Shown piece after piece: positions 25,448 through 59,970 of a stretch of 64,000 nucleotides of DNA. The position numbers and the translations under genes are program-made. Under the pieces are notes generated by a model that saw only the letters and a list, made by a program, of their open reading frames with translations, searched no databases and was not told the DNA's origin. Each line of letters begins with the position of its first letter. The stretch's first letter is position 1. The stretch comes from Tortispora ganteri (Eukaryota). The stretch lies in contig PPNB01000002.1 of assembly GCA_003707115.1 (NCBI GenBank), positions 434,001 to 498,000 of the forward strand, written 5' to 3'.

Positions 25448-26002
25448 TTTTGGATATATATATAGTTCCTTTTGGGGTGACAGATGAGTTATATACCGAA
25501 AGCAGGTTCGTAGTAACATTTAGGGAAACAATGAAAACAGGGTGCGAGCAGATAAACGGCTTCTGGAATGGTGATACAGAATAGCAGGGCGTAGAACACT
25601 GGATTGCCGTCAGCGAGTATCAAATGAAGTTTTTAGAAAGATTTCTTTAGATAAGTAACCGTTCGAGATTGGGCAACTGCAGTAGAAGAGGTGTGCGTGC
25701 GGACTATACTATAATTGGCTTTTGAGAGCGAAATGAGCAAAATAAGGTCTTGTGGATGCGTTGATAAGAAAAAGGATGACGAAATGTTGTTCGTGAGTAG
25801 AGTAGAATATATAATCTGTGTGGGTTTGCGCTCAGACGTTTGCTTGCCTTTTACAATCGTCTTTGGAATCTTCTTTGGAAGTGTTTGGCGGGCGGTGGTC
25901 GTGCGCAAACTTAGAGACTCTAAATACTCTTTGATAGTTGTCAAACGTTTCAACTTAACGTACCGACTCTATGTAGCTTTAAATAAAATAGGCTTTAATC
26001 TC

Positions 26003-26230
26003 AGTCACACTTTTCGAGCTAAGTCGGAACCGCGGTGGGATGATGACGTGTGCAGTCAAAGTAGACAAGTAATTATCACACAAGTTTCGAGTTCGCACGG
26101 AAGCGAGGTGGGGATGATGACGTGTGCAGTCTAAAGAGACAAAATAGTGACACGAATTTCAAATTTTCTCGAAATGGAGGTGAAGATAATGACGTATGCA
26201 GTCGAATGAGACAAGATAGTCACACAGATT
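26003..26230. repeat. Degenerate tandem repeat, about 73 bp x3, each unit with an ATGACGT-(G/A)-TGCAGTC core
   Basis: TGACGT at 26044, 26118 and 26190 (periods 74 and 72), with flanking GGTG..GAT, AGACAA and (T/G)CACAC-like blocks. Confidence 0.85.
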
Positions 26231-26513
26231 TAAATATAAGAAAAAGTCGCATTTGGGGAGGCGTATACTTATAATCACGCGGATCGCTGCGAAGTAAGGC
26301 GATCGATGACTAAATTAATTATTTGTTTAAACTTTTCATCTGCGGATCTTTATGCGGTTTAATGCCCGACACCAGACGCCGCGGATTAGAATCGGGAAAT
26401 CAGAATCCGAAAAGTTTAATTCTATTAGATAGGAGATGTTTATGCTGAGCGCTGTGAGAGAGATCTGAACGACGTTTCATTGACGTGTAGATGGCATTAA
26501 CATGTAAACGGCG

Positions 26514-26615
26514 TTTATCTAGATTCATTGTGTATAAATCGTTCATCTAGATTCATTGTATAAAGTGCTTATCTAGATTCATTGCATATATAGCATTTAT
26601 CTAGATTCAGTGTGT
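26514..26615. repeat. Tandem repeat, about 27 bp x4, with palindromic ATCTAGAT core (ATCTAGATTCA)
   Basis: ATCTAGATTCA at 26517, 26545, 26571 and 26599. Confidence 0.9.
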
Positions 26616-26840
26616 AGTAATGTAATAATAACAATGTAACATGTATCTAATGATAGTACTGTATCTAACCAAGAAAGAAAAGTAGCGGGTATTGTACAGT
26701 GTATATTTTATAACAGTTGATAATTGTAAATATCTTGATTAAAATTTATTGTTTTGTTCTGCTCTTTCGTGAGGTGGCAAACAGAGATCAAATTTGACGA
26801 TGTTGTATATGAAATAGCTATAAAGTGTCCCAATTTCCTC

Positions 26841-27516
26841 ATGAACAATAGTCTTGAACTCTTACCCTCTTCTATGAACCCGAAATTAGTTGTATTTGAT
26901 CTCGATTATACACTATGGCGTAAGTTAAATTTTTAATCTAAAATATTTGATATTAACAACAAAGCTGTAAGTATAGATATTTTTGTTTATAATGGAACGT
27001 GATCTAACAAACAGTTATGGTGTGACACTCATATTGACCCACCAATCAAAGGAATCAACAATGGCAGCGCCGTACAAGGCAGGCATGGCGTGATTGCTAA
27101 ATTCTACCCTGAAGTACCAGAGGTTCTGAAATCGCTGAAAGCTAGTGGTATAAAAATTGTAGCTGCATCACGCACACATACTCCAGAAACTGCCCGCCAG
27201 ATGCTACGCGAGCTTCGCGTAGACGGCCAGCGCGCTCTCGATTATTTCGATGCACTCGAGTTCGGCACTGGTAAGTATCTCGTTTTTTGCACTGTTCATT
27301 TGCTCGAACTAACAACAGGCAGGCTCGAAAATATCACACTTTGAACGAATTAAAAAGAAATTCGATGTCGATTACTCACAAATGATCTTCTACGACGACG
27401 AGGAACGCAACAGGGACGTCCAGAGACAATTAGGTGTGCTCTTCGTTTATGTGCGTAACGGAGTAGACAAAATGCTAATCGCTGATTCATTTGAGAAATG
27501 GCGAACTAAGCAATAA
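26841..27516 (+). CDS. MDP1: Magnesium-dependent phosphatase 1 (HAD class IIIC), four exons: 26841-26919, 26965-26966, 27015-27270, 27323-27516
   Basis: The spliced protein has [36 protein letters not shown] and MIFYDDEERN, the MDP-1 motifs. All three introns are GTAAGT...(C/T)TAAC...AG. Confidence 0.88.
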
Positions 27517-27694
27517 ACAACATTCAAAACATCCCTTCTAGCGGCTTACGGTGCCTTTTCAATCTGGCCCTGGCCGTTGGCCTTCCTGGTCAGCCCCTTA
27601 CCCACCTTCCCCCGCTTACTAACCAACAGTCCCAAAAACGCTTCCTTTCTCGCTTCATGCGCATCGCTGGATCCTCTAAACCGCTACATTAAAT

Positions 27695-46843: not shown

Positions 46844-46991
46844 TCAAGCTCCAGACGAGTCGTTTGTTTCCTGGTCAACTGCAGGGCTGTTGGAACCACT
46901 TAAATTACCTTGTGATGGTTGTTTCTGCATGTGCATTAGTTGCTGCTGTCGTTGTGCCCTGAGGGCTTGTTGTAATCGTAGTTGATGTTGC

Positions 46992-47023
<32 letters not shown>

Positions 47024-49929
47024 CTGCTGCTGGGTCTGCTGTTGGTGCTGGATACCGATCGCATTCGACGCTATTGTTACGTTCCCAGAACCGCCACCAC
47101 TAGAGCCTTTGAGACCATTCGTACCAGCTTTAATGCCTTGCTGTTGCTGTTGTTGCAACGCAGCAATGTATCTTTGTAGTTGAACATGGGCAATCTTTGT
47201 CACCTGTTCTGGCAACAGTGTGGGGTTTTGATTGCCTATTTGCGTAGCTACAGCTATCAGCTGCGGTGATGCGCGAACTTGTTGCAAGTGCGCTAAAAGT
47301 GCTGCAGAAGGTGTGGCTTTGCCAGATTGTGCTGCCGTTGGCCGTGCACTAACATTAGCAGACATACCCGAAGAAGAACTAGAACTTCCAGGATCCTTGG
47401 GGTCAACATTGTCAGCATTACGATGAATCATTCTCTCTCTTTCAAGGATCATAGTCTGCTGGAGTTGTTCAGCGGTCAATCGTGCACCTTGTCCATGTGA
47501 CATTACTGCTCTGTTTGATCCTATTGGTGTAACTGCGCCAGATCCGCTGGAACCGAGCGAGCCAGTGCTCGTAACATTATTTTTAGCTCCTAAAGAGGTC
47601 ACTGCGCCATTTTCAGCACCAGGGGTTCGCGTACCGCTAGATGATAAAGCAGGGCTAGATCGAGGTATACCATTCGCCTTCCCAACAGAGCGTTGTTGGT
47701 TCACAGTCAGCGGAACAAGTTTTTCTGCGGCCGCGCGATCATGCTCGGCTTTCATTCGTCCCAATTCAGCAGGCGTTGGAACTGGAGCCTTGATATCTGA
47801 ATCCTGATTAGACCGGCGAGGTTGGAGATTCGGCTTAGGTAGGTTCTCGCGTTTACGCATGCTCTTGCGAATACCTTCAAGTACACTTCCCCATCGAATC
47901 CGGCGTTGCCCTCTCTGTAAGTTGTCGGGGCCAATGCCAATCGGCATTAGACGCCTTTTAAGAGAGTACTGAGATTTAGCTGCAGTCTCAAGCCATACAT
48001 GGGCCACTCGAGCAAACGGACCCCGAAGATCTTGAAGTTGGAAATTAGGCTGCAATTGCAGCCATCGTTCAAAGCACTGCCAGGGAGTACGTCGTTCAAT
48101 ACCGGAAATAAATTGAGTACCTCGAGGATTAGCACCAAGGTGAGCAGAAATGATATCCCAGTTGTGTTGAAATCGTTCTGCTAACTTTAACAGTTCCTGA
48201 TCGTCAGAAGGATGCCATAAAGTAGGAATGCGGCCATCCAAGTATCGTGTGCTCGGTGGTTGTGGCGGCCATATCGGCGACTTATATTCACTTGCCGGCA
48301 TGAATATACCACCCATATAATAGTCTTGCTCATTATCAAAATATTCCGTATCGGCCACTTCGTAGCGTTTCCAGCATGGGTTATACTCGTCAGAGGAACT
48401 ATAATCGTAAGGTGGCCGCGTTAAGAAACGCGAGAATGGTACTTGCTGATCCTGAGAAATCGGATCAATAGCCAATTTAGTTTCTTCAAAGCTATTAATC
48501 GTTGGTAGGGCTTTAATTTGATCCAGCAAATCGCTGCTGAGGGAATCTTCACAAACAACTGTCTCTAAAGAAGAGAGCTCAAAAAAGCTATTTTTTACTT
48601 TTGAGCGTGGAATAGTTTCTGTGACTTTAGTTGAAACATGCAGACTATCACTCGGAGATATAGTTGTAGGAAGGTTAGCGTCGTTGTCTTTCTTATCCTT
48701 AACATCATCTATCACATCATTGGCAGAGGTGTCCGGCATCTCTACATCAGCAGAATGATAACCATTTTGAGATTCTTCGGCAGCTGTATCCTTTTCATCT
48801 AGAAGCTCTTCCGTAATTTTTGATAAATGGATTATAGGTTTGGTAACAATGCAACACTGCTCTTTTCCATACTTCCAAAAATCTTTAATAGCAAGAGACA
48901 ATTGCAGACATTGAACTTTCTTGAACTTCAATTCTTCTCTAAAGTCTGTGCTCATCCATTTCATTTCGTGCAACAAGTGATCCCAATGCGTTTGAGACCT
49001 TGATGGAGGTAAGTAGGCTTTCGGTTGATACAAGCTCCATTTTTTCTCTCTTTTTAATTCCTCCATACGATTGACAACAACTCCAAGTTCACCTTCCGTG
49101 ATGTAGGTGTAAAAATTAGTAGTAAACAGCACTTTTGGAGCTGTAGGTACCAATTTCGTCAGAGATAAAGCTTGAGTGATAAAATACATCTTTTGCAATG
49201 ATGTAAAATCCCATGTGACGCTGTTATCTAATGGATGAATCGCACCTGATTTGGCCATACTAGTAGCATACTTATTTGCGTTGTGAGAATTAATGCGGGC
49301 CAGCAGATTTTGCAGATTCACACTTTCCTCGCTATTATATAATTCAGAGAAAGTTGCTGACGTCTTGGAAGATTTGTGGCCTATAGGTTTAGAGAGCGCA
49401 TGGTTGGTAGACTGAGAGGGAGTGATTGGACTAGCATGTGCGCTAGATGAAGAATCATGTGCGGCACGCTTTTGACGTTTGCTATAGGGTTCGCCGAGAA
49501 TTTCAGATACGGATCGATGGCGAAGTGCGCCAGACGAAACTCGAGTAGTCATTCTCTCGGATTGTGAAGGAGTTCTTGAATGGTGAGCGCTAGAAATGGG
49601 AGTTGACGGAACTGATTGAGCTAATACTGGTAGGGCATTAACTACACCTACCGGTATGATTTCTGGATCAAAGGGTTCAGCTATGCTTTGGTAATCACTC
49701 AGAATCCGCTGCAGCTCGGGAGAGTCTTCAGGTACTTCTTCCAAGTCCGCAAGAGTCCAGAGATGCGTAGCAACCATGAATGCCTGTTCTATTTTGCGCT
49801 TTCTGCTTTCCGCAAGAAAAGCGATCGCATTCTCGCATGATTCTATTGTGTAAGAACTATCTGACGACTATTAGTTGGTACGTTAGTACGAGTGATCGAA
49901 GAGACAAAGATGGGAAAGTCGGTAACCAT
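46844..49929 (-). CDS. EAF1: NuA4 scaffold Eaf1/Vid21 (HSA, SANT, Gln-rich tail). Probable exon 1 is the ATG alone (49929-49927); exon 2 is 49867-46844
   Basis: HSA (WSLYQP...HWDHLLHEMKWMSTDFREE) and SANT (WHPSDDQEL...ERRTPWQCFERW). The frame extends upstream of the track start to 49867, includes SRKRKIE, and is preceded by TACTAAC...TAG. The 5' exon is tentative. Confidence 0.9.
46979..47050 (-). repeat. CAG/CAA polyglutamine-coding repeat in EAF1
   Basis: (TGC/TGT)n on the + strand; QQQQTQQQQQQQQQQQQQQQH in the protein. Confidence 0.9.
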
Positions 49930-50555: not shown

Positions 50556-51725
50556 TCAATTGGCAAAGATAACAGGTTCCTCATGACTGTTAGAGAAATG
50601 ATCAGCATTGGGATCACCACCTGTGAAGTCGACAAAGTCGAGGCACGGTACTTGTGTATCAGGGGCAACATCATCGGCTTGGCCAAGGAATGACGCAGTC
50701 ACGTCATTTGAGGCCTCGTGGTCTTCCATGGAGCGTATCTGAGATGATATTATAGATGTCGAAATGTCTAGAATATCGTTAGAGATGTGATTGTTGTTTG
50801 TCAAAGAGGGGCTATCAGATTTTGAAGAGGAACTTGTGCTTTGAGAGGCACTGTCACGGCGCGCAGATGCGAAAAGATGAGAGTTTCCTGATTCGGTGGT
50901 AGGCGCTGAGGCATCGGTAAGAGGAGCTGGTGACTTCGTGTATTGTGGTATACTTTGAGGGCTGCTATCAGAAGAAGCTGTTGAGCGATCAGAGTTGTTT
51001 CTATTTGTTGAGGAGAAAAATGGCGAAGAAGAAGTATCGACGGTAGAGTTTGTAGCGGCCAGCGCAGGTAGCACGGGGGCGTCGGCAGTAGATTTGTTAC
51101 AGGCAGTGGTAGTGAAGGGATAAGGCGATTTATGGCTTTTCAGATAGTTCGAGACAGTCTGTTTAATGTTTGCGATAAATAAAGCTGTGTCACCGAACGG
51201 ACGGAAAAGACGACCCGAGTCAAGGTTAACGATTTCTAGATAACCATAGATGGCAGTCATAGTCGGATAAATCTGGTCCCATGTTTCCCAGAAGACGAAG
51301 CTAGTGACAGCAGGGATTTTATCACAGAGTTCTTCTAAGACGGAGAGGCACTGTCTCATTGAAGACAAGATCTTATCTGGGTTATAAGGAGGTTCTTTAA
51401 GGATTTTCGGGAGGGCGACTGTTCCATTTATAACATTTCGCACAGCCTGAACACATCGGATTCTAGCTTGGCGATCGCAGTCAGGAACAATGATTAGTCT
51501 GATAGTAGGATTGTTTAGAATGATTTCAGAGATGCGCTTCTGTGAAAGCCTTGTCGAAAGAACCGGATGAAGATCTTTTGACACACCAGAGGACGTTGAA
51601 GACCGTGAAGAAGACGATGCCGAACGCAGTTTCTTTCGTGATTGTTGGCATTGCGAGGAGTTCATATCCTGGCCGATCAGGGATATTTGCGAAGAGTCGA
51701 GCAATTCATTAATGATGCTGCCCAT
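50556..51725 (-). CDS. Uncharacterised protein, ARxRC/FWxxW family member 1, with Ser-rich C-tail
   Basis: 389 aa ORF; DRQARIRC...LEELCD...FWETWD...LDSGR. Confidence 0.75.
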   Translation of the reverse strand: MGSIINELLDSSQISLIGQDMNSSQCQQSRKKLRSASSSSRSSTSSGVSKDLHPVLSTRLSQKRISEIILNNPTIRLIIVPDCDRQARIRCVQAVRNVINGTVALPKILKEPPYNPDKILSSMRQCLSVLEELCDKIPAVTSFVFWETWDQIYPTMTAIYGYLEIVNLDSGRLFRPFGDTALFIANIKQTVSNYLKSHKSPYPFTTTACNKSTADAPVLPALAATNSTVDTSSSPFFSSTNRNNSDRSTASSDSSPQSIPQYTKSPAPLTDASAPTTESGNSHLFASARRDSASQSTSSSSKSDSPSLTNNNHISNDILDISTSIISSQIRSMEDHEASNDVTASFLGQADDVAPDTQVPCLDFVDFTGGDPNADHFSNSHEEPVIFAN

Positions 51726-52769
51726 TTTTATAAGTTCTTTGCAGAAGAAAATAACAAGAAGAGTGGGGGTGGGGGAACCAAGCAGGTTCGTGTATTTATA
51801 CTATATTGAGCAATAAAAAGGTTTTCTGTTATTTAAGGTAAGAGGGGTTCGATACTCGAAAGATTAGATCTTCCGGAAAATAGCTTAAAAGGAGCAATTC
51901 CGGTGGGGATTTAACACTTGAAACTTTTAGGGAACAAGTCGAGCGGAGTATAATGGAGATACAGATTGAGGAAATTAAATTTTTACCCCTGTAAAATAGT
52001 CATATCAGTTGGATATTTTGTCTTTAATATGTCAGTGTTTCGGTAAAAATTGCAATCCTGTTGTAGCTAGGGCGAACCTTAATGTCGGTTGAAGTCCTGG
52101 AAATCTTTATCCGGTGGAAGTTAAATTACTAGTATGGGGATTAAAAACCGGTGGTGCTGCCGGTTTGTTGTCGATAGGGTCAGTATGGCTGAAACCCGTT
52201 TCAAAAGTTGCTATATTCTTCGCATGTTTGAGTATTTGGCATGCATCATCAATCTTTTGATATCGAAGTTCTAAATACAAATGGAAGGCGGGGCTACGGG
52301 TACTGACTAAGGAACTCTATCGCAGAGTAGTTCAGCACTATTCACATGTTCGCTATACCTCTCAAATACTTTAAACAGAAAAAATGATATGTTCCCATAA
52401 AAATGCTCTCCTGTCAATTAAAAGGTTTTTATCTCTGCGCAGATCAGTTTTATATTGGTAATTTTGGCCTGCTAATCGATCGGAAAACACTCAATCTGGC
52501 AGCCCATGCGACCCTACCCCGCATTTTCCTGGATAGAAGGGGAAAAACCCTAAATGGGCAACTTCACCATACCCTAGATCTTGACTACTCCATTATCTCG
52601 GATTCTTATCTTTTGCAATACACAGCCACATAGCTTCTAGTCTGCGCTGAATTGTTTACCCTAATATTAAGAATACCCCTGTACTTCTGCTTTCATTTTA
52701 GCTCGAATTCACCCACCAACCTTAGCTGTACCTGCGCAGAAAGTACTCTTCAATTTGAAGAACCCAGTT

Positions 52770-53192
52770 ATGCATGCACTATTTGCTATATTCTTGGCCT
52801 ACGTATCCGCAGCTGCAACCCAACTGCACAATTCGCCTTCCTCTAACAGGACACTACTCAGCAGCTCAACAGTACCTGTTCTACACCCTTCTGCTGCTGC
52901 ACTGGCCACAGCTGCATCTACCCTATATGCTTCTGCTTCTTTCTCCCAATCACTCTCCTCTGCAGTCCACACTACCTATACCAATGCCCCTTCGGTCACT
53001 ACTATAACCCTTCTTCATCCCAATACAAATACCAATACAACTGTATCGTCTTCGAAACACCATGCTAGATTGGACAATGTACCATGGGGCTGGTGGTGGC
53101 ACAGAAATAGCTTACCGGTGAGCACACTGGTATCCACCGTTAGCACTCTGGGCACCGCTCGCGCTACAAATAGTCAACCACAAATTAGCTAA
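52770..53192 (+). CDS. Small secreted Ser/Thr-rich protein
   Basis: ATG at 52770; signal peptide MHALFAIFLAYVSAA; Ser/Thr-rich body with NxT sequons; unusual PWGWWWH motif. Confidence 0.6.
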   Translation: MHALFAIFLAYVSAAATQLHNSPSSNRTLLSSSTVPVLHPSAAALATAASTLYASASFSQSLSSAVHTTYTNAPSVTTITLLHPNTNTNTTVSSSKHHARLDNVPWGWWWHRNSLPVSTLVSTVSTLGTARATNSQPQIS

Positions 53193-53390
53193 AAAGAACC
53201 CGCAACTAAAAGGCAGCACTCAATGATTAAAGCTAATTTTTTTTTCGAATTCTAGAAAAAATCATACGTGCCACCGCTTTATTATGTAGAGCTTATAAAC
53301 CGCGGGTTTACCGGGGAAATGACGTATGGCTCTGTAACCGGATTTCGAACCGCCTTAATCTTGTACCCTCGTCTATAGCGTTATCATTCC

Positions 53391-53439
53391 GCCTTCGACC
53401 AAGGTACAGCCTTAGACGAAGGTACAGCCTTAGACCAAA
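53391..53439. repeat. 18-bp direct repeat, about 2.5 copies (GCCTTAGACSAAGGTACA)
   Basis: gccttcgaccaaggtaca gccttagacgaaggtaca gccttagaccaa. Confidence 0.8.
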
Positions 53440-53856
53440 TTATCCGATAATTGATGGCCGTCGGGCACCCTTTGAGAGCGCTATAGATAATCGTTCGATA
53501 TATATGCGAACCAACGATAACTCACTTAGGTACCGTGCTGGCCTCTCAGAGTACTCTCATTCGCTCGGCATTCTCCGGCAGGAGCGTGACTCACCCCTGT
53601 TTCCATAATTAGCTAAACCAAGGCGACAATGACTAACGCCCAGTTCCATTAACGGCAATATGATTTGTGCCATAAACTTTATAATAATCGTCTTGCCCAC
53701 ATTTGCACCTTAAGTGCTTTATTATTGGTTCGCATCTTTTACGTCTGCATGTTATATTATAAACTTTATTACGCGTCGGAATTCGCCCACTGAAATGCTT
53801 CAAACCTATAAATATGTTAACAATTTGCCCCTGACTTTGTGATTAAACATAAAAAA

Positions 53857-54441
53857 ATGACTACGCTAGCTGATTCATATGCAAATCATATGCCTTTCCA
53901 AAAGCTAGTTCACTTTTATGGCCGTGTATCTGGGGACACTGTTCCGTACTCTGACTGTAGGGCACGCCAGAGATGCTACAATTTCCTCATCGATATTCTA
54001 AATGCTATCGAATCCACTTACAAGAAAACACGCCAGCCGCCAATCGCCGCATCGATCATTTCAAGTAGCATTAACGGTACGAACAGCGCGGACTCTACTA
54101 GATCGACTTCTACAGCTTTCTCGCAAACATCCCTCACAACAGACTCTGTCGTTTTTGATACCCCTTACCAGCTGTTAGACCGCCTTGCCGATTTCCAATA
54201 CGTCAAACAACAACTCTTCGCGCTTAAGTCCAGCGACAGAGTAGCGGATTCGGAAGAGTTCTGGGAGATATGGGATTCTTCAAAGATAGAAATGGTAGAC
54301 TACATGTTAAAACATTTACCTCTCCCTGACACTGTTCGAGACGAGGTCGAACAGTCACAAAACTACTATCACAACTACTCTGTTCAGGAATCTCTCATAA
54401 GATATCTCGAATACGGCCGGAGAGCGGCTTCACTTTCATGA
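53857..54441 (+). CDS. Uncharacterised protein, ARxRC/FWxxW family member 2
   Basis: ATG at 53857 (MTTLADSY); DCRARQRCYNFL...FWEIWD...YLEYGRR. Confidence 0.75.
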   Translation: MTTLADSYANHMPFQKLVHFYGRVSGDTVPYSDCRARQRCYNFLIDILNAIESTYKKTRQPPIAASIISSSINGTNSADSTRSTSTAFSQTSLTTDSVVFDTPYQLLDRLADFQYVKQQLFALKSSDRVADSEEFWEIWDSSKIEMVDYMLKHLPLPDTVRDEVEQSQNYYHNYSVQESLIRYLEYGRRAASLS

Positions 54442-54992
54442 TTCATCTCTCTATCATCTCACGATCTATCAACAACAGTCACGACTTTGCTTACTAAATA
54501 ATTACTATTCATATTGTATTCTATGTATATTCTACTGAACTGCGCTCATGTCCGTATGCTTAGGTTTGTTTTAGTGTAGACCTGCCATTGTTATCGATAA
54601 TTCCGTTATTTCCTTGATGAACCCGCCTTCTATCACGTGCACTGTCTGGACCCAGAAAGAACGCTGAAGAACCATTTTTTTGATTATATTACCATGGCAA
54701 CACATATCTTGTTACATTCCTCAAAAAAAACTTCTCTCCCTCCCTCAGGTGGCGGTACACATTCCAACTAAATCTTTGCCTCCCGCGGCACTTTCTATCT
54801 CGCGTATCTCGACAGAGGAGCATTCGAACTGCACGATAATTTGCCAATAAACATATTGTCACTTTATCTATTTGCTCAAAAAAATTTCACCGAATTTGGT
54901 CCATTTTTGCACAGTTCTTGACTGTCTTTGTTCGATTTTCCTATTTTTTTTTCCCTTTCCCCTCTTTTTCTTGTCTAAAGTGGCTGGTTACC

Positions 54993-55850
54993 ATGACGAC
55001 TTTAATATCATCTCACAATACGGTCACCACGCGAGAAAATGTCGCAACGGCCAGCGCTAAAACTGCTAAATCTTTACCAGAGCTGTCGTATAATGACATT
55101 GATCGTGCTGGTACGAAATGCCGCAAACGATGTTCATACGTCGCATTAGAATATTCTTTACCAAGCCCTCCAGAGTACTCGGGATCTGATGCTGAAGAAG
55201 AGGATCCAGACAGCGCCGATGTTATTCATGAGACGAATGATAAGCCAGATGGATTGCTGTCTAAGGTTAAGCGACCGTGCTTGCGTAGAAATTTCTCAAT
55301 TCGCGATCGCAGATTAAGCAAGTCCTCAAGGGGTGCGCCAAAGTGCGATCTTGCAGCTCGCCACAGATGCCTCGAGTACCTCGTAGAGGCCGTTGACGAA
55401 GCTTGGGCTCGCTATTATGACTCTACTTCTAATGCTGAGTTGGAAATATATACAGAAGATGCTATGAGTGGCAGTGGCGAGCTTACTAGGGCGGCTAAGA
55501 TATACTATTCTGAGTCTGAAGCTGACTTGAGTGATTCTAGTACTGCGAGCTATGATTCAGCTGCATCTGCCACTAGCGCCAACACCGCTGTTACTTCTGA
55601 AAGCTGCATTGCATCCACTTTGCCGAAGAATGTTAGGCTTCAGAATATAAAAGACAGGCTCTTATCAGCGAAGTATGAACTCGAAGAACTGGTCGACGAC
55701 GATAGCCGGAAAGCTGCTGCACTGTTTTGGTCTCGCTGGGACAAAGTTAAGTACACGGCTCTTGATCTTTGCGAAGAAGACGAGGAAGATTCTGATCAGA
55801 AACTTGAACAGCTTGAAGATGGTCGCTGGAATTGTGACTATAATAACTAA
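54993..55850 (+). CDS. Uncharacterised protein, ARxRC/FWxxW family member 3
   Basis: ATG at 54993 (MTTLISSH); DLAARHRCLEYLVEAVDEAWARY...LEELVD...FWSRWD...LEDGRW. Confidence 0.82.
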   Translation: MTTLISSHNTVTTRENVATASAKTAKSLPELSYNDIDRAGTKCRKRCSYVALEYSLPSPPEYSGSDAEEEDPDSADVIHETNDKPDGLLSKVKRPCLRRNFSIRDRRLSKSSRGAPKCDLAARHRCLEYLVEAVDEAWARYYDSTSNAELEIYTEDAMSGSGELTRAAKIYYSESEADLSDSSTASYDSAASATSANTAVTSESCIASTLPKNVRLQNIKDRLLSAKYELEELVDDDSRKAAALFWSRWDKVKYTALDLCEEDEEDSDQKLEQLEDGRWNCDYNN

Positions 55851-56569
55851 GGTACAGGAAAACTCGTGACTGAGTGTGACTGACCTATGTTGTTCGCAGC
55901 TTTTATTCCTCTGTGCATTTGCACATCCACTTACACACTTATACATTCAGACACCACACACACACAAATACGAAATGAACATACGAATGATGATCTTGAT
56001 TGATTTTTCTTTGCTTTTGTTCTACGAAAAACATAATATGGGGTCCCTGTTTTCGCTGGGTTACGTTTGCGAAATAGAGACAATTTTTGCTATGATCTTG
56101 TACACTACTTGTGACCATTACATGTACGTCACGAAACAGAAGAAAAAAACTTTTTATAATGATATATTCACACATATGACTCGCATTAACGTAGTTTGCT
56201 AGTCCAATGAGTACCTAATACATACCTAATGATACCGAAAAGTACAAAAACCCCAATGAGTCCATTATGCGGAAGAGCGATGAGGATACTCAATGCTCTA
56301 AGTCTGCGCCGTAAACGGTCACGACACCCGAAATTCTCGAAGAAGCGTGACCTTAACAATTTTCTTTTATACTGCCGGCTTGCAGAGATGCGTTTTCGTC
56401 TCAGTTACAATGTACATACGATTCAATCCAAAACTAGCGAAAGAACGATAATAGCCTATTGTGTTAGATTTATAAACCGTTAGTGAAAACAAAACAACTT
56501 ACTATAAACACAATATACTGCTTAACTTACTATGGGGGACACATTCCGATCCACTGATTCACCAACTGC

Positions 56570-57640
56570 TCAAATACCCCGGATCTACTGAACAGCAGCT
56601 ATCACGTCGATATCCGCCTGGAACGCCAAACTAAGCTGCTGAGTATTGTCAGGCCAAACAGACGGAGAGACTAAAACACGTATCGGATACCACATGTCGC
56701 TCTGAACAAAAGCGTGGTTAATATTCCAGGTATCGCTTCCGGCAGGTGCAGATGCACTGTACCCTTCGGTGCCTATTTGGACGATATTCGTACATGTCAT
56801 GGCATTAGTTCCGACAAAGACATAGAGCATACTTTCCGTTATAGTTCCGTTAGGCTGTGATATGCTTTCCAATACGTTCGGGCCTTTTATGTAAAACATC
56901 ACTTCGAGTATAGCTGGTTCTCCTGATCTTAGAGCTATTATCTGCCCTTCGCTGACTACAAGCCGTTTTCCAGAGTTAACGCGGGTTCTGTAGGCTGCCT
57001 CAGCAATCTCCTCTGCTGAATATTCTTCGGTATCGCGGAAGTAGTACTCTGCAAAAAGAATTCTACCGGGAGTTCCTAATGGTTGTTCAGCGCAATAAAC
57101 CCCGGCATCCTAGGAAGAGCTAGACACGCTAGATGAGCTGGAAGAGCTTTCAGAACTAGAAACATCTGAACTTTCAGAGCTAGATGAGATCTTTGAATAA
57201 GAAGAACTCAATACCTCTGAGCTAACAGAACTTGTGAGACTAAGCGAAATAGTATGAGTAACCAAGCTGCTTGATTTAGTCGAGTTCACATAGATAGATG
57301 AGTCCGTTGAACTTGATATAGAATGAGAACTAACATGACTAAAGGAGCTAAATGAAGTTTCAGGGTTCACTGAGCTAACTGAGCTTGTAGAACTCTGTGC
57401 TAATTCACCAACGATATCATATTAGCCAGTTATATCAACAAATAGTGGTCCAACTTGTCGTTTTCTACCATTCTCAATAGTATGTAGAACAACTATTCTT
57501 ATCGGATACCATTGACCGGTGAAATTCAGGTTAATATTCCAACCGCCGTCCAAGTATCCTTGATATACTTGCCCTCCAGAACCAATCTCTTTTATATCAT
57601 TGCATGACATTGCAGACTGGCCATTAAAAATATATATCAC
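56570..57640 (-). pseudogene. Stop-interrupted flocculin/adhesin-like gene: two PA14/GLEYA-like segments separated by a Ser-rich linker
   Basis: One continuous reading frame broken by TAA (57424-57422), TAG (57112-57110) and TAG (56587-56585). The repeated motif Y(I/V)F.G..AM.C..I..IG...WNIN..F...WYPIR occurs twice. Confidence 0.7.
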
Positions 57641-58054
57641 TTAAAACTATCAAGCTTTTAGTATAAAAGAAAGTAAGGAAAAACTTAAAAAACCAAAACA
57701 CAGAAGGATTAGTTATATTAGAAAGGTGATGGTACAGGTCCTGTATAAAGATTGCTATTCAATTATATAGATTAGCAGTCTAGTTGGACTCATATGAAAG
57801 GGACTGATTGCAACATGTGTAAGTTTGGTGTACCTGTAAAATGATGAAAGTATAACTTTATGTTAAATAATTCATAACTTTATTAAAGGATCTATAATTT
57901 TGTAGGAGCAAAAATTACAATAAGCAGACTGGATACTGAAAATAAAGGCCTCAGATATCTGCAAATGGTAATTATATATCTTGATATGGAAATAAAATTA
58001 CAATGACATGATTTAAGCAACACTCTTTGCTAATGTGTAATATTTAAGCTCCAA

Positions 58055-58456
58055 TTAACAGACCCTGCGACCACTTTCCAAATCGTAACGCTTATTTTGA
58101 ATTTGTTCCTTACTCAATTGACTACCTGTAGCAAGTGATTCGCCTAAAGATACAATATCAGCACTTCTACGACTCCACTCCTTCCAGAACTTATCAGATG
58201 TAGCGATCTTTGTATCGCTGACTGATGACAGTAGGATGTCGTAGGTGCTTTGAAGAATTTTGTGATGGTTCTTGTAATTTTGCAATTCGTCGCTGGACAT
58301 TTCAGAAGATTTTTTGGGGTCATCGATTGTCTTTGCAATAGTGCGCATAACGTTTGTCAAATATGCAAAACATCTTGCACGAGCATCGATATCGTCGTCG
58401 TTTGTGTATCCTGCTTTTTCCCAGAACTTATCTGAATTTATCGAAAATGCGCCCAT
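58055..58456 (-). CDS. Uncharacterised protein, ARxRC/FWxxW family member 4 (minimal domain, 133 aa)
   Basis: DIDARARCFAYL...FWKEWS...YDLESGRR. Confidence 0.75.
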   Translation of the reverse strand: MGAFSINSDKFWEKAGYTNDDDIDARARCFAYLTNVMRTIAKTIDDPKKSSEMSSDELQNYKNHHKILQSTYDILLSSVSDTKIATSDKFWKEWSRRSADIVSLGESLATGSQLSKEQIQNKRYDLESGRRVC

Positions 58457-58770
58457 TGCTAATCAAAAATAAAGCCGCTTATAATTTTAGCAATAGTGAA
58501 TAAGGGCAATTTGGACTCTTATTAAATGATTATGACGAAAGCAGGGAGGGGGCTTGGCCGTTAGCGATATCGGCTTTAAAGGGCTATGTTTTAGTAGTAT
58601 AATATGTTGGTATAGCAACTTAACTGTTTTAAGTTAAAGAAGGACGGTATAATTGGTTGAATTAGCACTTAAAGTTCGGTAGAAACAACGTTAAGCCTCT
58701 TTTGTGTAAATATAGTGTCATTTCGTCGTAACATAATCGTAATATATCCATATAAATCAGTAGTTCGTAA

Positions 58771-59970
58771 TCATTGCCTTCGTCTATTGGTCATATCTGA
58801 GGTGCGGAGCTTAAATTCTCTCAGTTCACCAGTCTGATCAAGTGCTCTGTTCCAATTGCCCCAACCCGGTAGTCTAACGACCATGCATGTAGCATTGTCG
58901 TCGCCGCCGATTGCTTCTATATACTTCACTATATCCTGTGCCGCACGCTGCGGTGTACCTTGACGAGCACCAAGCTGTTCGTATGTGGAATAGACAATGT
59001 CTACAATTTCCTGATCAGAAGCCATCCCAGTAACGCCGTCGCTCACTAACACGAGAAATGCATTTTTGTTCTCGTTCGGCGAAATAGTCATTTGCGTGAT
59101 TTCTGGTTCCGCAGAAACGCCCATACGTTTCATACGTTTGTCGCCAAACGCCCTTGTGACCGCAACTATTCCGAACCTTTCTTCTCCGAACGAATCCGTG
59201 AAGATGTTTGTTGCGTATCGTCGAATGCGATGGCTCTCATCAGGAGAGGAAGGATGATGATCGCGAGTCAGCGCATGAGCGTTTCCTTCGCGATCAGCAA
59301 TGATACAGCGTGTGTCGCCAACATGACCTACAACGAGGCTAGATGTGGCTTCCGGACTCCAATAGGGGATTTCCGGGTTATGCGAATACAGGTAGGCAGC
59401 AGTGCATGTAGATCCACATGGCTTGCTTTGCTCTATAGTGTATTGGTAGTCTGCCGTCAGGTAAGAAAGTGGAAGTCTATACGCGAGATCGTCAGTCGCA
59501 GATACGTCCTGGTAGCATTTCTGTAAGGCACCAATTCTACGGCGCCAGTATCCGCCTACAGAATCGGCGTACTTTTGTTCTAAGTCAGCCGCCGAACCGA
59601 GATCACAGTTCTCTACGTACTCGGCAAGATGATTCGCAAGGAACTCTGAGCACTGGTCGCCACCGTGCCCATCATATACTGCAAAACAAAAGACATTATT
59701 TGTACCAGGATGACCTTGACGCTGCTTTTTGGGCAGGAAAGAGGTCATTGCTGGTAGCGTCAATAGCGATGCACTATAGCGATCTTCGTTCCGTGGGCGA
59801 TCCATGCGAGAGGTGAAATGGCCAATATAGCTGGGTACTTGCAATAAATTCAGTCGTAAAGTCACAGAAGCGCCAGATTTAGGCACACTCGAAGTAACAT
59901 AGTAAGAACTCACGCTTCTGCGGGCCGTATTGAAAGAAATATGACTTAGTGGTTTTCTAATGTGTACCAT
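58771..59970 (-). CDS. PTC6: Mitochondrial PP2C phosphatase (Ptc6-like)
   Basis: RPRNEDRY, VYDGHGG, GST, HVGDTR, LTRDHHP, DSFGEERF..TRAFGD, LVSDG, DNAT; N-terminal presequence. Confidence 0.88.
   Translation of the reverse strand: MVHIRKPLSHISFNTARRSVSSYYVTSSVPKSGASVTLRLNLLQVPSYIGHFTSRMDRPRNEDRYSASLLTLPAMTSFLPKKQRQGHPGTNNVFCFAVYDGHGGDQCSEFLANHLAEYVENCDLGSAADLEQKYADSVGGYWRRRIGALQKCYQDVSATDDLAYRLPLSYLTADYQYTIEQSKPCGSTCTAAYLYSHNPEIPYWSPEATSSLVVGHVGDTRCIIADREGNAHALTRDHHPSSPDESHRIRRYATNIFTDSFGEERFGIVAVTRAFGDKRMKRMGVSAEPEITQMTISPNENKNAFLVLVSDGVTGMASDQEIVDIVYSTYEQLGARQGTPQRAAQDIVKYIEAIGGDDNATCMVVRLPGWGNWNRALDQTGELREFKLRTSDMTNRRRQ

What the first reader, a model, noticed from the sequence alone, without database searches (positions are those of the whole stretch)
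50556..58456. Accessory island with four highly diverged paralogs of an uncharacterised ARxRC / FWxxW / L[ED]xGR domain
Seen: four ORFs that look unrelated overall share three ordered motifs: DRQARIRC..FWETWD..LDSGR (50556-51725, -), DCRARQRC..FWEIWD..LEYGR (53857-54441, +), DLAARHRC..FWSRWD..LEDGR (54993-55850, +) and DIDARARC..FWKEWS..LESGR (58055-58456, -). Members 2 and 3 both begin MTTL; members 1 and 3 share LEEL(C/V)D. The motifs are separated by Ser/Thr-rich linkers of variable length, and the 133-aa member defines a minimal, probably helical domain. The island has larger intergenic regions than most of the flanking housekeeping DNA and also holds secreted and adhesin-like genes. Inference: an old local expansion of a family I cannot name, with an invariant Cys and an aromatic pair, possibly a redox-sensitive or protein-interaction module. 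Member 3 may be the ancestral copy, with the others neofunctionalised or acting as dominant-negative or partner subunits.
Basis: partly seen in the sequence, partly recalled or inferred. Interest (0 to 1): 0.78.

Follow-up and report, generated by a model that had tools for sequence, protein, structure and literature searches.

The report
Unnamed yeast helical-domain family, four genes
Four neighbouring genes in this Tortispora-like yeast are real but very old relatives of one another, and they belong to a widespread budding-yeast protein family that has no name, no solved structure and no known function.

Summary
The ordered motifs AR.RC / FW..W / L[ED].GR occur in exactly 4 of 284 six-frame segments. 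Profiles built only from other yeasts rank these four ORFs first among 1108 segments.

The window comes from a close relative of Tortispora caseinolytica.

A profile of the four found 125 proteins among 1.84 billion. Every one that carries a name is called "hypothetical". None has a Pfam family or a relative in the PDB.

This is not a recent local expansion. Three members fall into three old subfamilies:
- m3 is the widespread "main" type (Ogataea, Komagataella, Debaryomyces, C. auris, Hanseniaspora, Yarrowia).
- m4 is a domain-only "small" type (Yarrowia, Magnusiomyces).
- m1 has the domain at the N-terminus plus a long tail (Trichomonascus).
- m2 fits no subfamily and is closest to m3.

In Yarrowia sp. 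B02 the small and main genes carry consecutive locus tags.

The predicted fold is an antiparallel three-helix bundle plus a short C-terminal helix, with a disordered loop after helix 1. Function is inferred only: a non-enzymatic interaction module. The redox idea is unsupported. The "accessory island" reading is not supported.

The parts
50556..51725 (-). m1, 389 aa, 'tail' subfamily: Ser-rich N-terminus, helical domain at about residues 70-190, and a long disordered Ser/Thr-rich tail.
   Evidence: The ORF is. It scores 109.7 bits against the tail-type HMM built from 5 non-Tortispora proteins, against 12.7 (main) and 7.9 (small). It groups with tail-type rows with SH-aLRT 95-97. It is 86.6% identical to the 389-aa T. 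caseinolytica protein P0004.
51156..51518 (-). Conserved domain of m1 (residues 70-190), carrying ARIRC, FWETW and LDSGR.
   Evidence: Only 1 of 121 positions differs from the T. caseinolytica ortholog, against 51 of 268 outside the domain.
53857..54441 (+). m2, 194 aa, a family member that fits no subfamily. It is the domain only, with a loop of about 50 residues after helix 1.
   Evidence: The ORF is. HMM scores are 30.4 bits (small), 23.2 (main) and 11.9 (tail). The tree does not place it. Its best pairwise partner is m3 (Smith-Waterman 81, Z 8.4). It is 83.0% identical to the 194-aa P0003.
54993..55850 (+). m3, 285 aa, 'main' subfamily: a disordered N-terminal arm (1 to about 115) and a C-terminal domain.
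   Evidence: It scores 172.5 bits against the main-type HMM built from 97 non-Tortispora proteins. In the AF2 model, helices 117-158, 212-234, 239-260 and 264-274 lie in 10-residue blocks with mean pLDDT 73-98, and residues 1-115 score low. It is 89.8% identical to P0002.
55326..55847 (+). Conserved domain of m3 (residues 112-285), carrying ARHRC, FWSRW and LEDGR.
   Evidence: 6 of 174 positions differ from the T. caseinolytica ortholog, against 23 of 111 outside the domain.
58055..58456 (-). m4, 133 aa, 'small' subfamily: the bare domain.
   Evidence: It scores 74.6 bits against the small-type HMM built from 10 non-Tortispora proteins. It groups with all 10 small-type rows at SH-aLRT 99. The AF2 model has mean pLDDT 81.2, with helices 19-45, 55-79, 84-110 and 116-126. 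It is 93% identical to the T. caseinolytica protein CANCADRAFT_102912.

Best explanation
What is shown. The four ORFs are real, selectively maintained genes of one protein superfamily. The superfamily is spread through budding yeasts (Saccharomycotina) and has no name and no characterised member that I could find.

Its hallmark is a domain of about 100 ordered residues:
- Helix 1 starts with D..AR.RC.
- A disordered loop of very variable length follows.
- Helix 2 follows the loop.
- Helix 3 starts with FW..W(D).
- A short acidic or Gly-containing turn follows.
- A short helix 4 ends in (E)L[ED].GR, close to the C-terminus of the domain.

The four genes are not a recent Tortispora expansion. 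m3, m4 and m1 belong to three old subfamilies (main, small and tail). Each of these has closer relatives in other yeast orders than in its own neighbours here. Only m2 may be a later copy of the m3 type.

What is inferred about the arrangement. The cluster is best read as a retained old tandem array. In Yarrowia sp. B02 a small-type and a main-type gene also carry consecutive locus tags. In later-branching yeasts only a single main-type gene was seen at the loci I fetched.

How it works (inferred, about 0.3). The domain is a non-enzymatic antiparallel three-helix bundle. By helix geometry, the three motifs lie near one end of the bundle. They would form either its core cap or one conserved binding site. 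The bundle would act as a protein-interaction module. The disordered arms of the main type carry conserved short motifs: KR.C, RR.[ST], acidic Ser runs, SQYSD-like and, in a third of members, an R[VI].F-like motif. These arms would bring in regulation by kinases or phosphatases. The invariant Cys is most likely a small packing residue and not a redox switch.
For: Family and significance:
- Motifs occur in 4 of 284 segments only.
- The four ORFs are the top four of 1108 segments for each of three HMMs built without Tortispora sequences.
- A profile of the four found 125 proteins at E <= 1e-3, of which 66 at <= 1e-10, among 1,835,955,588 representatives.
- Of these 125, 124 carry FW..[WFY], 119 carry [LIVM][EDQN].G[RK] and 98 carry [AS][RK].[RK]C.

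Subfamilies:
- HMM scores assign m3 to main (172.5 bits), m4 to small (74.6) and m1 to tail (109.7).
- The tree gives SH-aLRT 99 for m4 with small and 95-97 for m1 with tail.
- Profile-profile comparison of sets without Tortispora sequences gives: small against main, probability 99.3, E 1.3e-20, over the whole domain; tail against main, 96.8, E 2.2e-10; tail against small, 93.9, E 1.6e-7.

Selection:
- All four ORFs are intact, with the same length (or one residue different) in T. caseinolytica.
- Differences in the domains are 0.8% (m1) and 3.4% (m3), against 19-21% outside them.

Fold:
- The m4 model has pLDDT 81.2.
- The m3 domain helices lie in 10-residue blocks with mean pLDDT 73-98.
- Both models have the same helix order and share the same top generic three-helix-bundle match, 9rgv_A (Z 9.1 and 9.0).

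Neighbour pairing:
- Yarrowia sp. B02 CJU89_1464 (small) and CJU89_1465 (main) sit on one contig.

Arm motifs in 205 main-type proteins, against shuffled means:
- KR.C in 133 (shuffled 7.8).
- RR.[ST] in 166 (57.9).
- SQYSD-like in 127 (1.0).
- Acidic Ser run in 84 (1.8).
- R[VI].F-like in 66 (9.2).
Against: - No direct evidence of function, partner, localisation or expression was obtained.
- The fold matches are generic. Z of 9 is below the roughly 13 that the tool gives as needed for helical bundles.
- The m4 model rests on only 4 sequences.
- That the motifs converge at one end of the bundle is my inference from helix order. It was not measured on coordinates.
- The motif enrichments in the arms are counted over related sequences, so inheritance inflates them. 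m3 itself has no R[VI].F motif (read from its sequence).
- The Yarrowia adjacency rests on consecutive locus tags and accession numbers. I did not read the DNA.
- Only some subfamily members carry organism names, so the statement that small and tail types are confined to early-branching orders rests on 2 named small clusters of 7 looked up and 1 named tail cluster of 5 looked up, plus Tortispora.
- In 15 of 15 metagenome loci with a main-type gene, no second family gene lies in the flanks. Clustering is therefore not general.
A named, more diverged relative (for example in Saccharomycetaceae) may exist.
Confidence: 0.75

Rival explanations
1. This is a recent, lineage-specific tandem expansion in Tortispora, forming an 'accessory island'. 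m3 is the parent and the other three are fast-evolving daughters.
For: The four genes lie within 8 kb between conserved housekeeping genes. m2 and m3 are adjacent, on the same strand, both start with MTTL, and are the best-scoring pair (Z 8.4). m2 fits no outside subfamily well.
Against: m1 scores 109.7 bits against a Trichomonascus-type profile and only 12.7 against main. m4 scores 74.6 bits against a Yarrowia/Magnusiomyces-type profile and only 12.8 against main. The tree supports both placements at 95-99. G+C is ordinary and the difference in intergenic gaps is not significant (p = 0.11).
Confidence: 0.08
2. The domain is a strongly diverged form of an already characterised family, for example one with a named Saccharomyces or Candida albicans member. 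It looks orphan only because the tools used here are not sensitive enough.
For: Hanseniaspora members have already lost the AR.RC and L.E.GR motifs (P0109), so Saccharomycetaceae copies could be unrecognisable. My searches used HMMER against Pfam and PDB sequences, not profile-profile searches against those libraries.
Against: None of the 4 members and none of 101 relatives reaches a Pfam threshold. The commonest weak match is Rap1a, in 6 of 101. PDB profile searches gave nothing better than E 0.066. The Atlas cluster 'DEHA2E15730p' has 284 members and no common Pfam family. All names seen are 'hypothetical'. A text search for six locus tags found 0 papers.
Confidence: 0.15
3. The main-type proteins are regulatory or targeting subunits of protein phosphatase 1 (Glc7). 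They would dock through an R[VI].F motif in the disordered arm, and a neighbouring RR.S kinase site would gate the docking.
For: A strict [RK][VI][^PDE][FW] motif occurs in 66 of 205 main-type arms, against a shuffled mean of 9.2 and a maximum of 18. Most lie 90-100 residues before the domain. In members read it directly follows an AKRRAS-type site, for example in P0015, P0038, P0072 and P0097.
Against: Two thirds of members lack the motif, including m3 in this window. The sequences are related, so the enrichment is not independent. Short RVxF-like strings are common in disordered regions. No PP1 interaction was tested.
Confidence: 0.1
4. The domain is a redox-sensitive module that works through the invariant Cys.
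For: The Cys of AR.RC is invariant in A3 (101 sequences), in the small set and in the four members.
Against: Only one Cys is conserved across all three subfamilies. The second main-type Cys (WARYC) is absent from m3, from m4 and from the small type. There is no CxxC or His/Cys cluster. The Cys sits in the i, i+3/4 hydrophobic stripe of helix 1 (A122, C126, Y129, I134, W138, Y141), as expected for a buried packing residue (inference).
Confidence: 0.05
5. The shared motifs are a chance or compositional coincidence between unrelated ORFs.
For: BLASTP between single pairs is weak (E from 0.003 to 1.8).
Against: The motifs occur in these 4 ORFs alone, independent outside profiles pick exactly these four, and 0 of 300 shuffles reach any observed pair score.
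Confidence: 0.01

Closest known systems
Unnamed main-type family of 'hypothetical proteins': Debaryomyces hansenii DEHA2E15730p, Yarrowia lipolytica YALI0E01518p, Komagataella phaffii PAS_chr4_0469, Ogataea parapolymorpha HPODL_02940
   Same: m3 has the same architecture, with a disordered arm and a C-terminal domain. It shares the same motifs (D..AR.RC, IDE.WA.Y, L..LK.RL..AK, FW.RWD..KY, an acidic turn and ELE.GR). It scores 172.5 bits against their profile.
   Different: m3 lacks the second Cys (WARYY instead of WARYC). It also lacks the SQYSD and R[VI].F arm motifs seen in many members. None of these proteins has a described function.
Unnamed small-type proteins: Yarrowia sp. B02 CJU89_1464 (KAG5367014.1) and Magnusiomyces paraingens SAPINGB_P003365
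   Same: m4 is the bare domain of 116-162 aa, with the same motif order. It scores 74.6 bits and groups with them at SH-aLRT 99. In both Yarrowia sp. B02 and this window it neighbours a main-type gene.
   Different: m4 has AR.RC where the 10 outside small-type proteins have AQ.RC. It has FWKEWS where they have FW.[YHN]WD.
Unnamed tail-type proteins: Trichomonascus vanleenenianus TRVA0_037S01134
   Same: m1 has the domain at the N-terminus (IVP.CD..AR.RC ... VFWE.WD..Y ... GR.FRP.G.AA). It also has a long disordered tail with an acidic (R/S)MEE-like motif. It scores 109.7 bits.
   Different: m1 ends in ...VIFAN, whereas 4 of the 5 outside members end in I[IV]W. Its domain is shorter because it lacks the RFW..H insert.
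Generic antiparallel three-helix bundles, for example the designed bundle 9rgv_A and the EzrA repeat 4uy3_A
   Same: The predicted topology is the same. The matches are Z 9.1 (rmsd 2.9, 91 aligned) and Z 9.4 (rmsd 3.4, 98 aligned) for m4, and Z 9.0 (rmsd 2.5, 88 aligned) for m3.
   Different: Sequence identity is 4-14% and the Z values are in the range the tool calls a common arrangement for helical proteins. This says nothing about function or ancestry.

Membership tests
Main-type unnamed family (DEHA2E15730p / YALI0E01518p) | Significant match to a profile built from members outside Tortispora | tested here: met
   m3 scores 172.5 bits (E 1e-54 at Z=1) and E 1.3e-51 among 1108 window segments. 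m2 scores 23.2 bits, m4 12.8 and m1 12.7, which is superfamily level only.
Main-type unnamed family (DEHA2E15730p / YALI0E01518p) | Architecture: a disordered N-terminal arm followed by the domain at the extreme C-terminus, ending in ELE.GR plus a few residues | tested here: met
   In m3, residues 1-115 have low pLDDT, the helices span 117-274, and LEDGR lies at 274-278 of 285.
Small-type unnamed family (CJU89_1464 / SAPINGB_P003365) | Domain-only protein of about 115-160 aa that matches the small-type profile and groups with it in a tree | tested here: met
   m4 is 133 aa, scores 74.6 bits, and groups with the 10 small-type rows at SH-aLRT 99.
Tail-type unnamed family (TRVA0_037S01134) | N-terminal domain with VP.CD..AR.RC and VFWE.WD, followed by GR.FRP and a long tail | tested here: met
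   m1 scores 109.7 bits and groups at SH-aLRT 95-97. The motifs can be read. The C-terminal I[IV]W of 4 of 5 outside members is not present in m1.
One superfamily joining the main, small and tail types | Significant profile-profile matches between subfamily alignments that contain no window or Tortispora sequence | tested here: met
   hhalign gives probability 99.3 with E 1.3e-20, probability 96.8 with E 2.2e-10, and probability 93.9 with E 1.6e-7. The two matches involving the tail type each cover only one block of the domain.
Any Pfam-A family (24,736 models) | Score at or above the family's gathering threshold | tested here: not met
   None of the 4 members reaches a threshold. The best match is TorS_sensor_domain at 13.7 bits against a cut-off of 27. 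Among 101 relatives no family recurs beyond 6 weak Rap1a matches.
Any protein of known structure (PDB), by sequence or by fold | A significant sequence-profile match, or a fold match that stands clear of the background | tested here: inconclusive
   Sequence profiles give a best E of 0.066 and 0.68. Foldseek finds no match at E <= 0.001. VIA-align gives a best Z of 9.0-9.4, within the generic range for helical models.
PP1 (Glc7) regulatory subunits | An RVxF-type docking motif in a disordered region | tested here: inconclusive
   The motif is present in 66 of 205 main-type arms. It is absent from m3 in this window (read from the sequence). Binding was not tested.
Thiol-based redox switches | A pair of conserved Cys (CxxC or similar), or an exposed reactive Cys | tested here: not met
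   One Cys is invariant across the subfamilies and there is no conserved second Cys. Whether the Cys is exposed could not be measured with these tools.

The most novel reading that the evidence does not exclude
The Tortispora cluster is a surviving piece of an ancestral budding-yeast tandem array of a lineage-specific regulatory module. The bare-domain small protein and the long main protein work as a pair, which would explain why they are neighbours in both Trigonopsidales and Dipodascales. The main protein's arm would recruit a phosphatase or kinase through R[VI].F and RR.S motifs. The genes would be switched on together under stress: AGGGG elements lie upstream of all four, at 3.1 per kb against 0.98 per kb in other intergenic DNA. 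Later yeasts would have kept only the main form.
Probability: 0.1. Interest if true: 0.6.

Novelty: categorically new. Interest (0 to 1): 0.42.

Why it matters
The domain defines a protein superfamily that runs through much of the budding-yeast subphylum. That range includes industrial yeasts (Komagataella, Ogataea, Yarrowia) and the pathogen Candidozyma auris. Yet the family has no Pfam entry, no structure and no name.

Showing that three differently built protein types share one domain gives a handle for naming the family. It also points to tractable species for study. Yarrowia carries a small-type and a main-type gene side by side. Komagataella and Ogataea each yielded one main-type protein cluster.

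The importance is moderate. This is one of many orphan fungal families, and nothing here yet ties it to a process.

I chose the label 'categorically new' only because no known family could be matched. The sequences themselves are already public as hypothetical proteins.

Tried and rejected
- The whole genome of the window is not held, so other copies elsewhere in this genome could not be sought.
- ESM Atlas with m4 gave no usable hit. With DEHA2E15730p it returned only its own unnamed cluster. Further rows scored 0.75-0.77 (UAF_Rrn10 in 16% of one cluster, Scm3 in another), which is below the level of a lead.
- Foldseek against the PDB for both models found nothing at E <= 0.001.
- Complex prediction on the m3 domain with m4 returned 'no answer' (score 0.00, alignments not used). 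This says nothing either way.
- The look-up of sequencing runs listed no RNA holder. The two holders are DNA runs, so expression was not tested and read laying was not run.
- A search for named Saccharomycetaceae relatives, using a Hanseniaspora-like alignment, returned 9 proteins. All were unnamed or 'hypothetical', and the only new named taxon was Hanseniaspora.
- A text search for six locus tags found 0 papers. Supplementary tables are not covered by that search and might list these genes in omics data.
- A second literature search on Tortispora gene families returned only irrelevant listings (listing only).
- Earlier notes of this scan held nothing for this place or this sequence.
- Synteny: 45 neighbouring ORFs in 7 metagenome loci were scanned. 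I left out 13 of the 58 listed ORFs: the 8 family genes, all of L012 (a near copy of L011) and 2 end fragments. None of the 45 is EAF1-like (HSA/Myb) or PP2C. An MT-A70 (KAR4-like) gene lies nearby in 2 loci, L003 and L015. I take this as ordinary local synteny.
- Promoter motifs: of 16 tested, only AGGGG stood out (8 in 2573 bp against 2.5 expected, Poisson P = 0.0045). After correction for 16 tests this is about 0.07, so it is a lead only.
- The tree rests on 87 motif-anchored columns and many of its forks are unresolved. 13 of 122 candidate rows were dropped for lack of an anchor motif.
- P0114 (689 aa), one of the 125 profile hits, has none of the motifs and does not match the larger profile. 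I treat it as a false hit.
- P0096 carries a CDC48_N piece in front of the domain. This probably reflects a fused gene model.

Full report
**Where we are.** The window is ordinary yeast chromosomal DNA. The 133-aa ORF is 93% identical to the hypothetical protein CANCADRAFT_102912 of Tortispora caseinolytica. The source is therefore a close relative in that genus (Trigonopsidales). The region of the finding lies between an EAF1-like gene (HSA + Myb, 46844-49777) and a PP2C gene (58771-59970), followed by a VPS13-like gene. G+C in the region is 0.39-0.44, inside the window's range.

**The observation.** Four ORFs lie at the stated coordinates: m1 at 50556-51725 (-), m2 at 53857-54441 (+), m3 at 54993-55850 (+) and m4 at 58055-58456 (-). 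They carry AR.RC, FW..W and L[ED].GR in that order. Among 284 stop-to-stop segments of at least 60 aa in six frames, no other segment carries AR.RC or FW..W.

Single BLASTP pairs are weak, with E from 0.003 to 1.8. All six domain pairs nevertheless exceed 300 of 300 shuffles, with Z from 4.0 to 8.4.

The strongest control uses three HMMs built only from proteins of other yeasts. Each ranks these four ORFs as the top four of 1108 window segments, with a clear gap to the noise.

**The family outside this genome.** A profile of the four domains was searched against 1.84 billion representative proteins. It found 125 at E <= 1e-3 and 66 at E <= 1e-10. Of the 125, 124 have FW..[WFY] and 119 have [LIVM][EDQN].G[RK]. 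One, P0114, looks like a false hit.

A second search with 101 aligned members returned 175 proteins. Named members come from Ogataea, Komagataella, Kuraishia, Wickerhamomyces, Debaryomyces (DEHA2E15730p), Candidozyma auris and relatives, Scheffersomyces, Metschnikowia, Brettanomyces, Pichia, Saccharomycopsis, Hanseniaspora and Yarrowia (YALI0E01518p). Every name is 'hypothetical', 'uncharacterized' or 'unnamed'.

There is no link to a described family:
- No Pfam family reaches threshold for the four members, for 25 selected hits (apart from two odd ones), or recurrently among 101 members.
- PDB sequence-profile searches are empty.
- The Atlas cluster of DEHA2E15730p has 284 members and no common Pfam family.
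- Six locus tags occur in no searched paper text. Supplements were not searched.

**Three old subfamilies.** The hits fall into three architectures.
- The 'main' type has 200-500 aa, with a disordered arm followed by the domain at the very C-terminus. Its consensus is D..AR.RCFDYLV.AIDEAWARYCD ... LQ.LK.RL.KAKY.L.D.VDS...FW.RWD.IKY..IELVEDDDDDE...IEELE.GR.
- The 'small' type has 116-162 aa and consists of the bare domain. Named members are from Yarrowia sp. B02 and Magnusiomyces.
- The 'tail' type has about 400-510 aa, with the domain at the N-terminus and a long tail that usually ends in I[IV]W. The one named member is from Trichomonascus.

HMMs without Tortispora sequences assign m3 to main (172.5 bits), m4 to small (74.6) and m1 to tail (109.7). 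m2 is weak against all three, at 30.4, 23.2 and 11.9 bits. A tree on 87 motif-anchored columns agrees: m4 groups with small at 99, m1 with tail at 95-97, and m2 is unplaced. It has few columns and many open forks.

Profile-profile comparison of the three outside alignments shows that they are one superfamily, with probabilities 99.3, 96.8 and 93.9. The duplications that gave m1, m3 and m4 are therefore older than the split between the yeast orders concerned.

m2 is nearest to its same-strand neighbour m3. It may be a younger copy.

**Are they genes?** The T. caseinolytica counterparts have 389, 194, 284 and 133 aa. They are 86.6, 83.0, 89.8 and 93.2% identical to m1-m4. Changes avoid the domain: 1 of 121 positions inside against 51 of 268 outside in m1, and 6 of 174 against 23 of 111 in m3. 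This is the pattern of purifying selection on a folded domain flanked by free-evolving disordered parts.

**Arrangement.** In Yarrowia sp. B02 the small-type protein (CJU89_1464, KAG5367014.1) and a main-type protein (CJU89_1465, KAG5367015.1) have consecutive tags on one contig. In this window, only decayed DNA separates m3 and m4. I infer an old tandem array, kept in part in these two early-branching orders.

Each of 15 metagenome loci found with the main-type alignment holds a single main-type gene. None holds a small or tail gene in the flanks, including the 8 loci with flanks of roughly 9-10 kb. Their neighbours are unrelated to EAF1 or PTC6.

The 'island' idea itself is weak. Intergenic gaps are not significantly larger (p = 0.11) and composition is ordinary.

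**Fold.** AlphaFold2 models give the same plan for m4 and for the m3 domain.
- m4 has mean pLDDT 81.2, from a 4-sequence alignment, with helices 19-45, 55-79, 84-110 and 116-126.
- m3 was modelled from 50 sequences, with helices 117-158, 212-234, 239-260 and 264-274 in 10-residue blocks of mean pLDDT 73-98. Its arm 1-115 and loop 159-211 score low.

Both models match generic antiparallel three-helix bundles best. 9rgv_A scores Z 9.1 and 9.0, and EzrA scores Z 9.4 for m4. These values do not stand out for helical proteins, and Foldseek finds nothing significant.

AR.RC opens helix 1, FW..W opens helix 3, and L.E.GR closes helix 4. In an up-down-up bundle with a returning fourth helix, these three would lie near the same end. 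This is my inference and was not measured.

**Function.** Nothing here shows function. I commit to a non-enzymatic interaction or regulatory module, at about 0.3.
- The domain has no catalytic-type pattern.
- The invariant residues are either a hydrophobic stripe (A, C, Y, I, W, Y on helix 1; F, W, W on helix 3) or charged pairs (D/R/R, K/R, D/K, E/R).
- The main-type arms carry conserved short motifs typical of regulated disordered regions. These are KR.C in 133 of 205, RR.[ST] in 166, SQYSD-like in 127, acidic Ser runs in 84 and an R[VI].F-like motif in 66, all far above shuffles. The sequences are related, so these counts are inflated.

The R[VI].F motif next to an AKRRAS site is a lead to protein phosphatase 1. 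It is absent from m3 and from two thirds of members.

The single invariant Cys looks like a packing residue. A redox role is not supported.

AGGGG elements lie upstream of all four genes at three times the local intergenic rate. This does not survive correction for the 16 motifs tried.

**Verdict.** The evolutionary reading changes: these are three ancient subfamilies plus one unplaced member, kept side by side, and not a local expansion in an accessory island. Interest is moderate. This is a clean, testable orphan domain across budding yeasts, with no link yet to any process.

Noticed in passing
window 56585-57640 (-): Three consecutive stretches lie in one reading frame and are separated by in-frame stops (TAA at 57422-57424, TAG at 57110-57112). 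The first is a 72-aa piece, the second a Ser-rich 103-aa piece and the third a 174-aa piece. The first and third pieces are related to each other (36% identity, E 6e-13) and share WNIN...WYPIR. The 72-aa piece has a sub-threshold GLEYA match (E 0.056, 14.2 bits against a cut-off of 26.2). This looks like a decayed adhesin-type gene with a duplicated lectin-like domain.
   Followed up: partly
window 52770-53192 (+): A 140-aa ORF with a hydrophobic N-terminus (signal-peptide-like by eye) and a Ser/Thr-rich body. It has no Pfam match. Whether it is a real secreted protein was not tested.
   Followed up: partly
window 51726-52769, 53193-53856, 54442-54992, 58457-58770: AGGGG/CCCCT (STRE-like) pentamers lie upstream of all four family genes: 8 in 2573 bp, against 11 in 11206 bp of other intergenic DNA. 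Poisson P is 0.0045 before correction for the 16 motifs tried.
   Followed up: partly
L003:11464-12603 (-) and L015:14856-15764 (+): An MT-A70 (KAR4/IME4-like) gene lies close to the main-type family gene in 2 of the 7 metagenome loci whose neighbours were scanned. In L015 the order is KRR1-like, peptidase M3, family gene, CLC channel, MT-A70, SPB1-like, PIG-X. This is probably plain synteny.
   Followed up: no
P0096 (175 aa): A family domain preceded by a 47-residue CDC48_N match (E 1.1e-12). This is probably a chimeric gene model or assembly and not a true fusion.
   Followed up: no
window 25520-27694: This is the largest stretch of the window without an ATG ORF of at least 150 aa (2175 bp). 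It lies outside the finding and was not examined.
   Followed up: no
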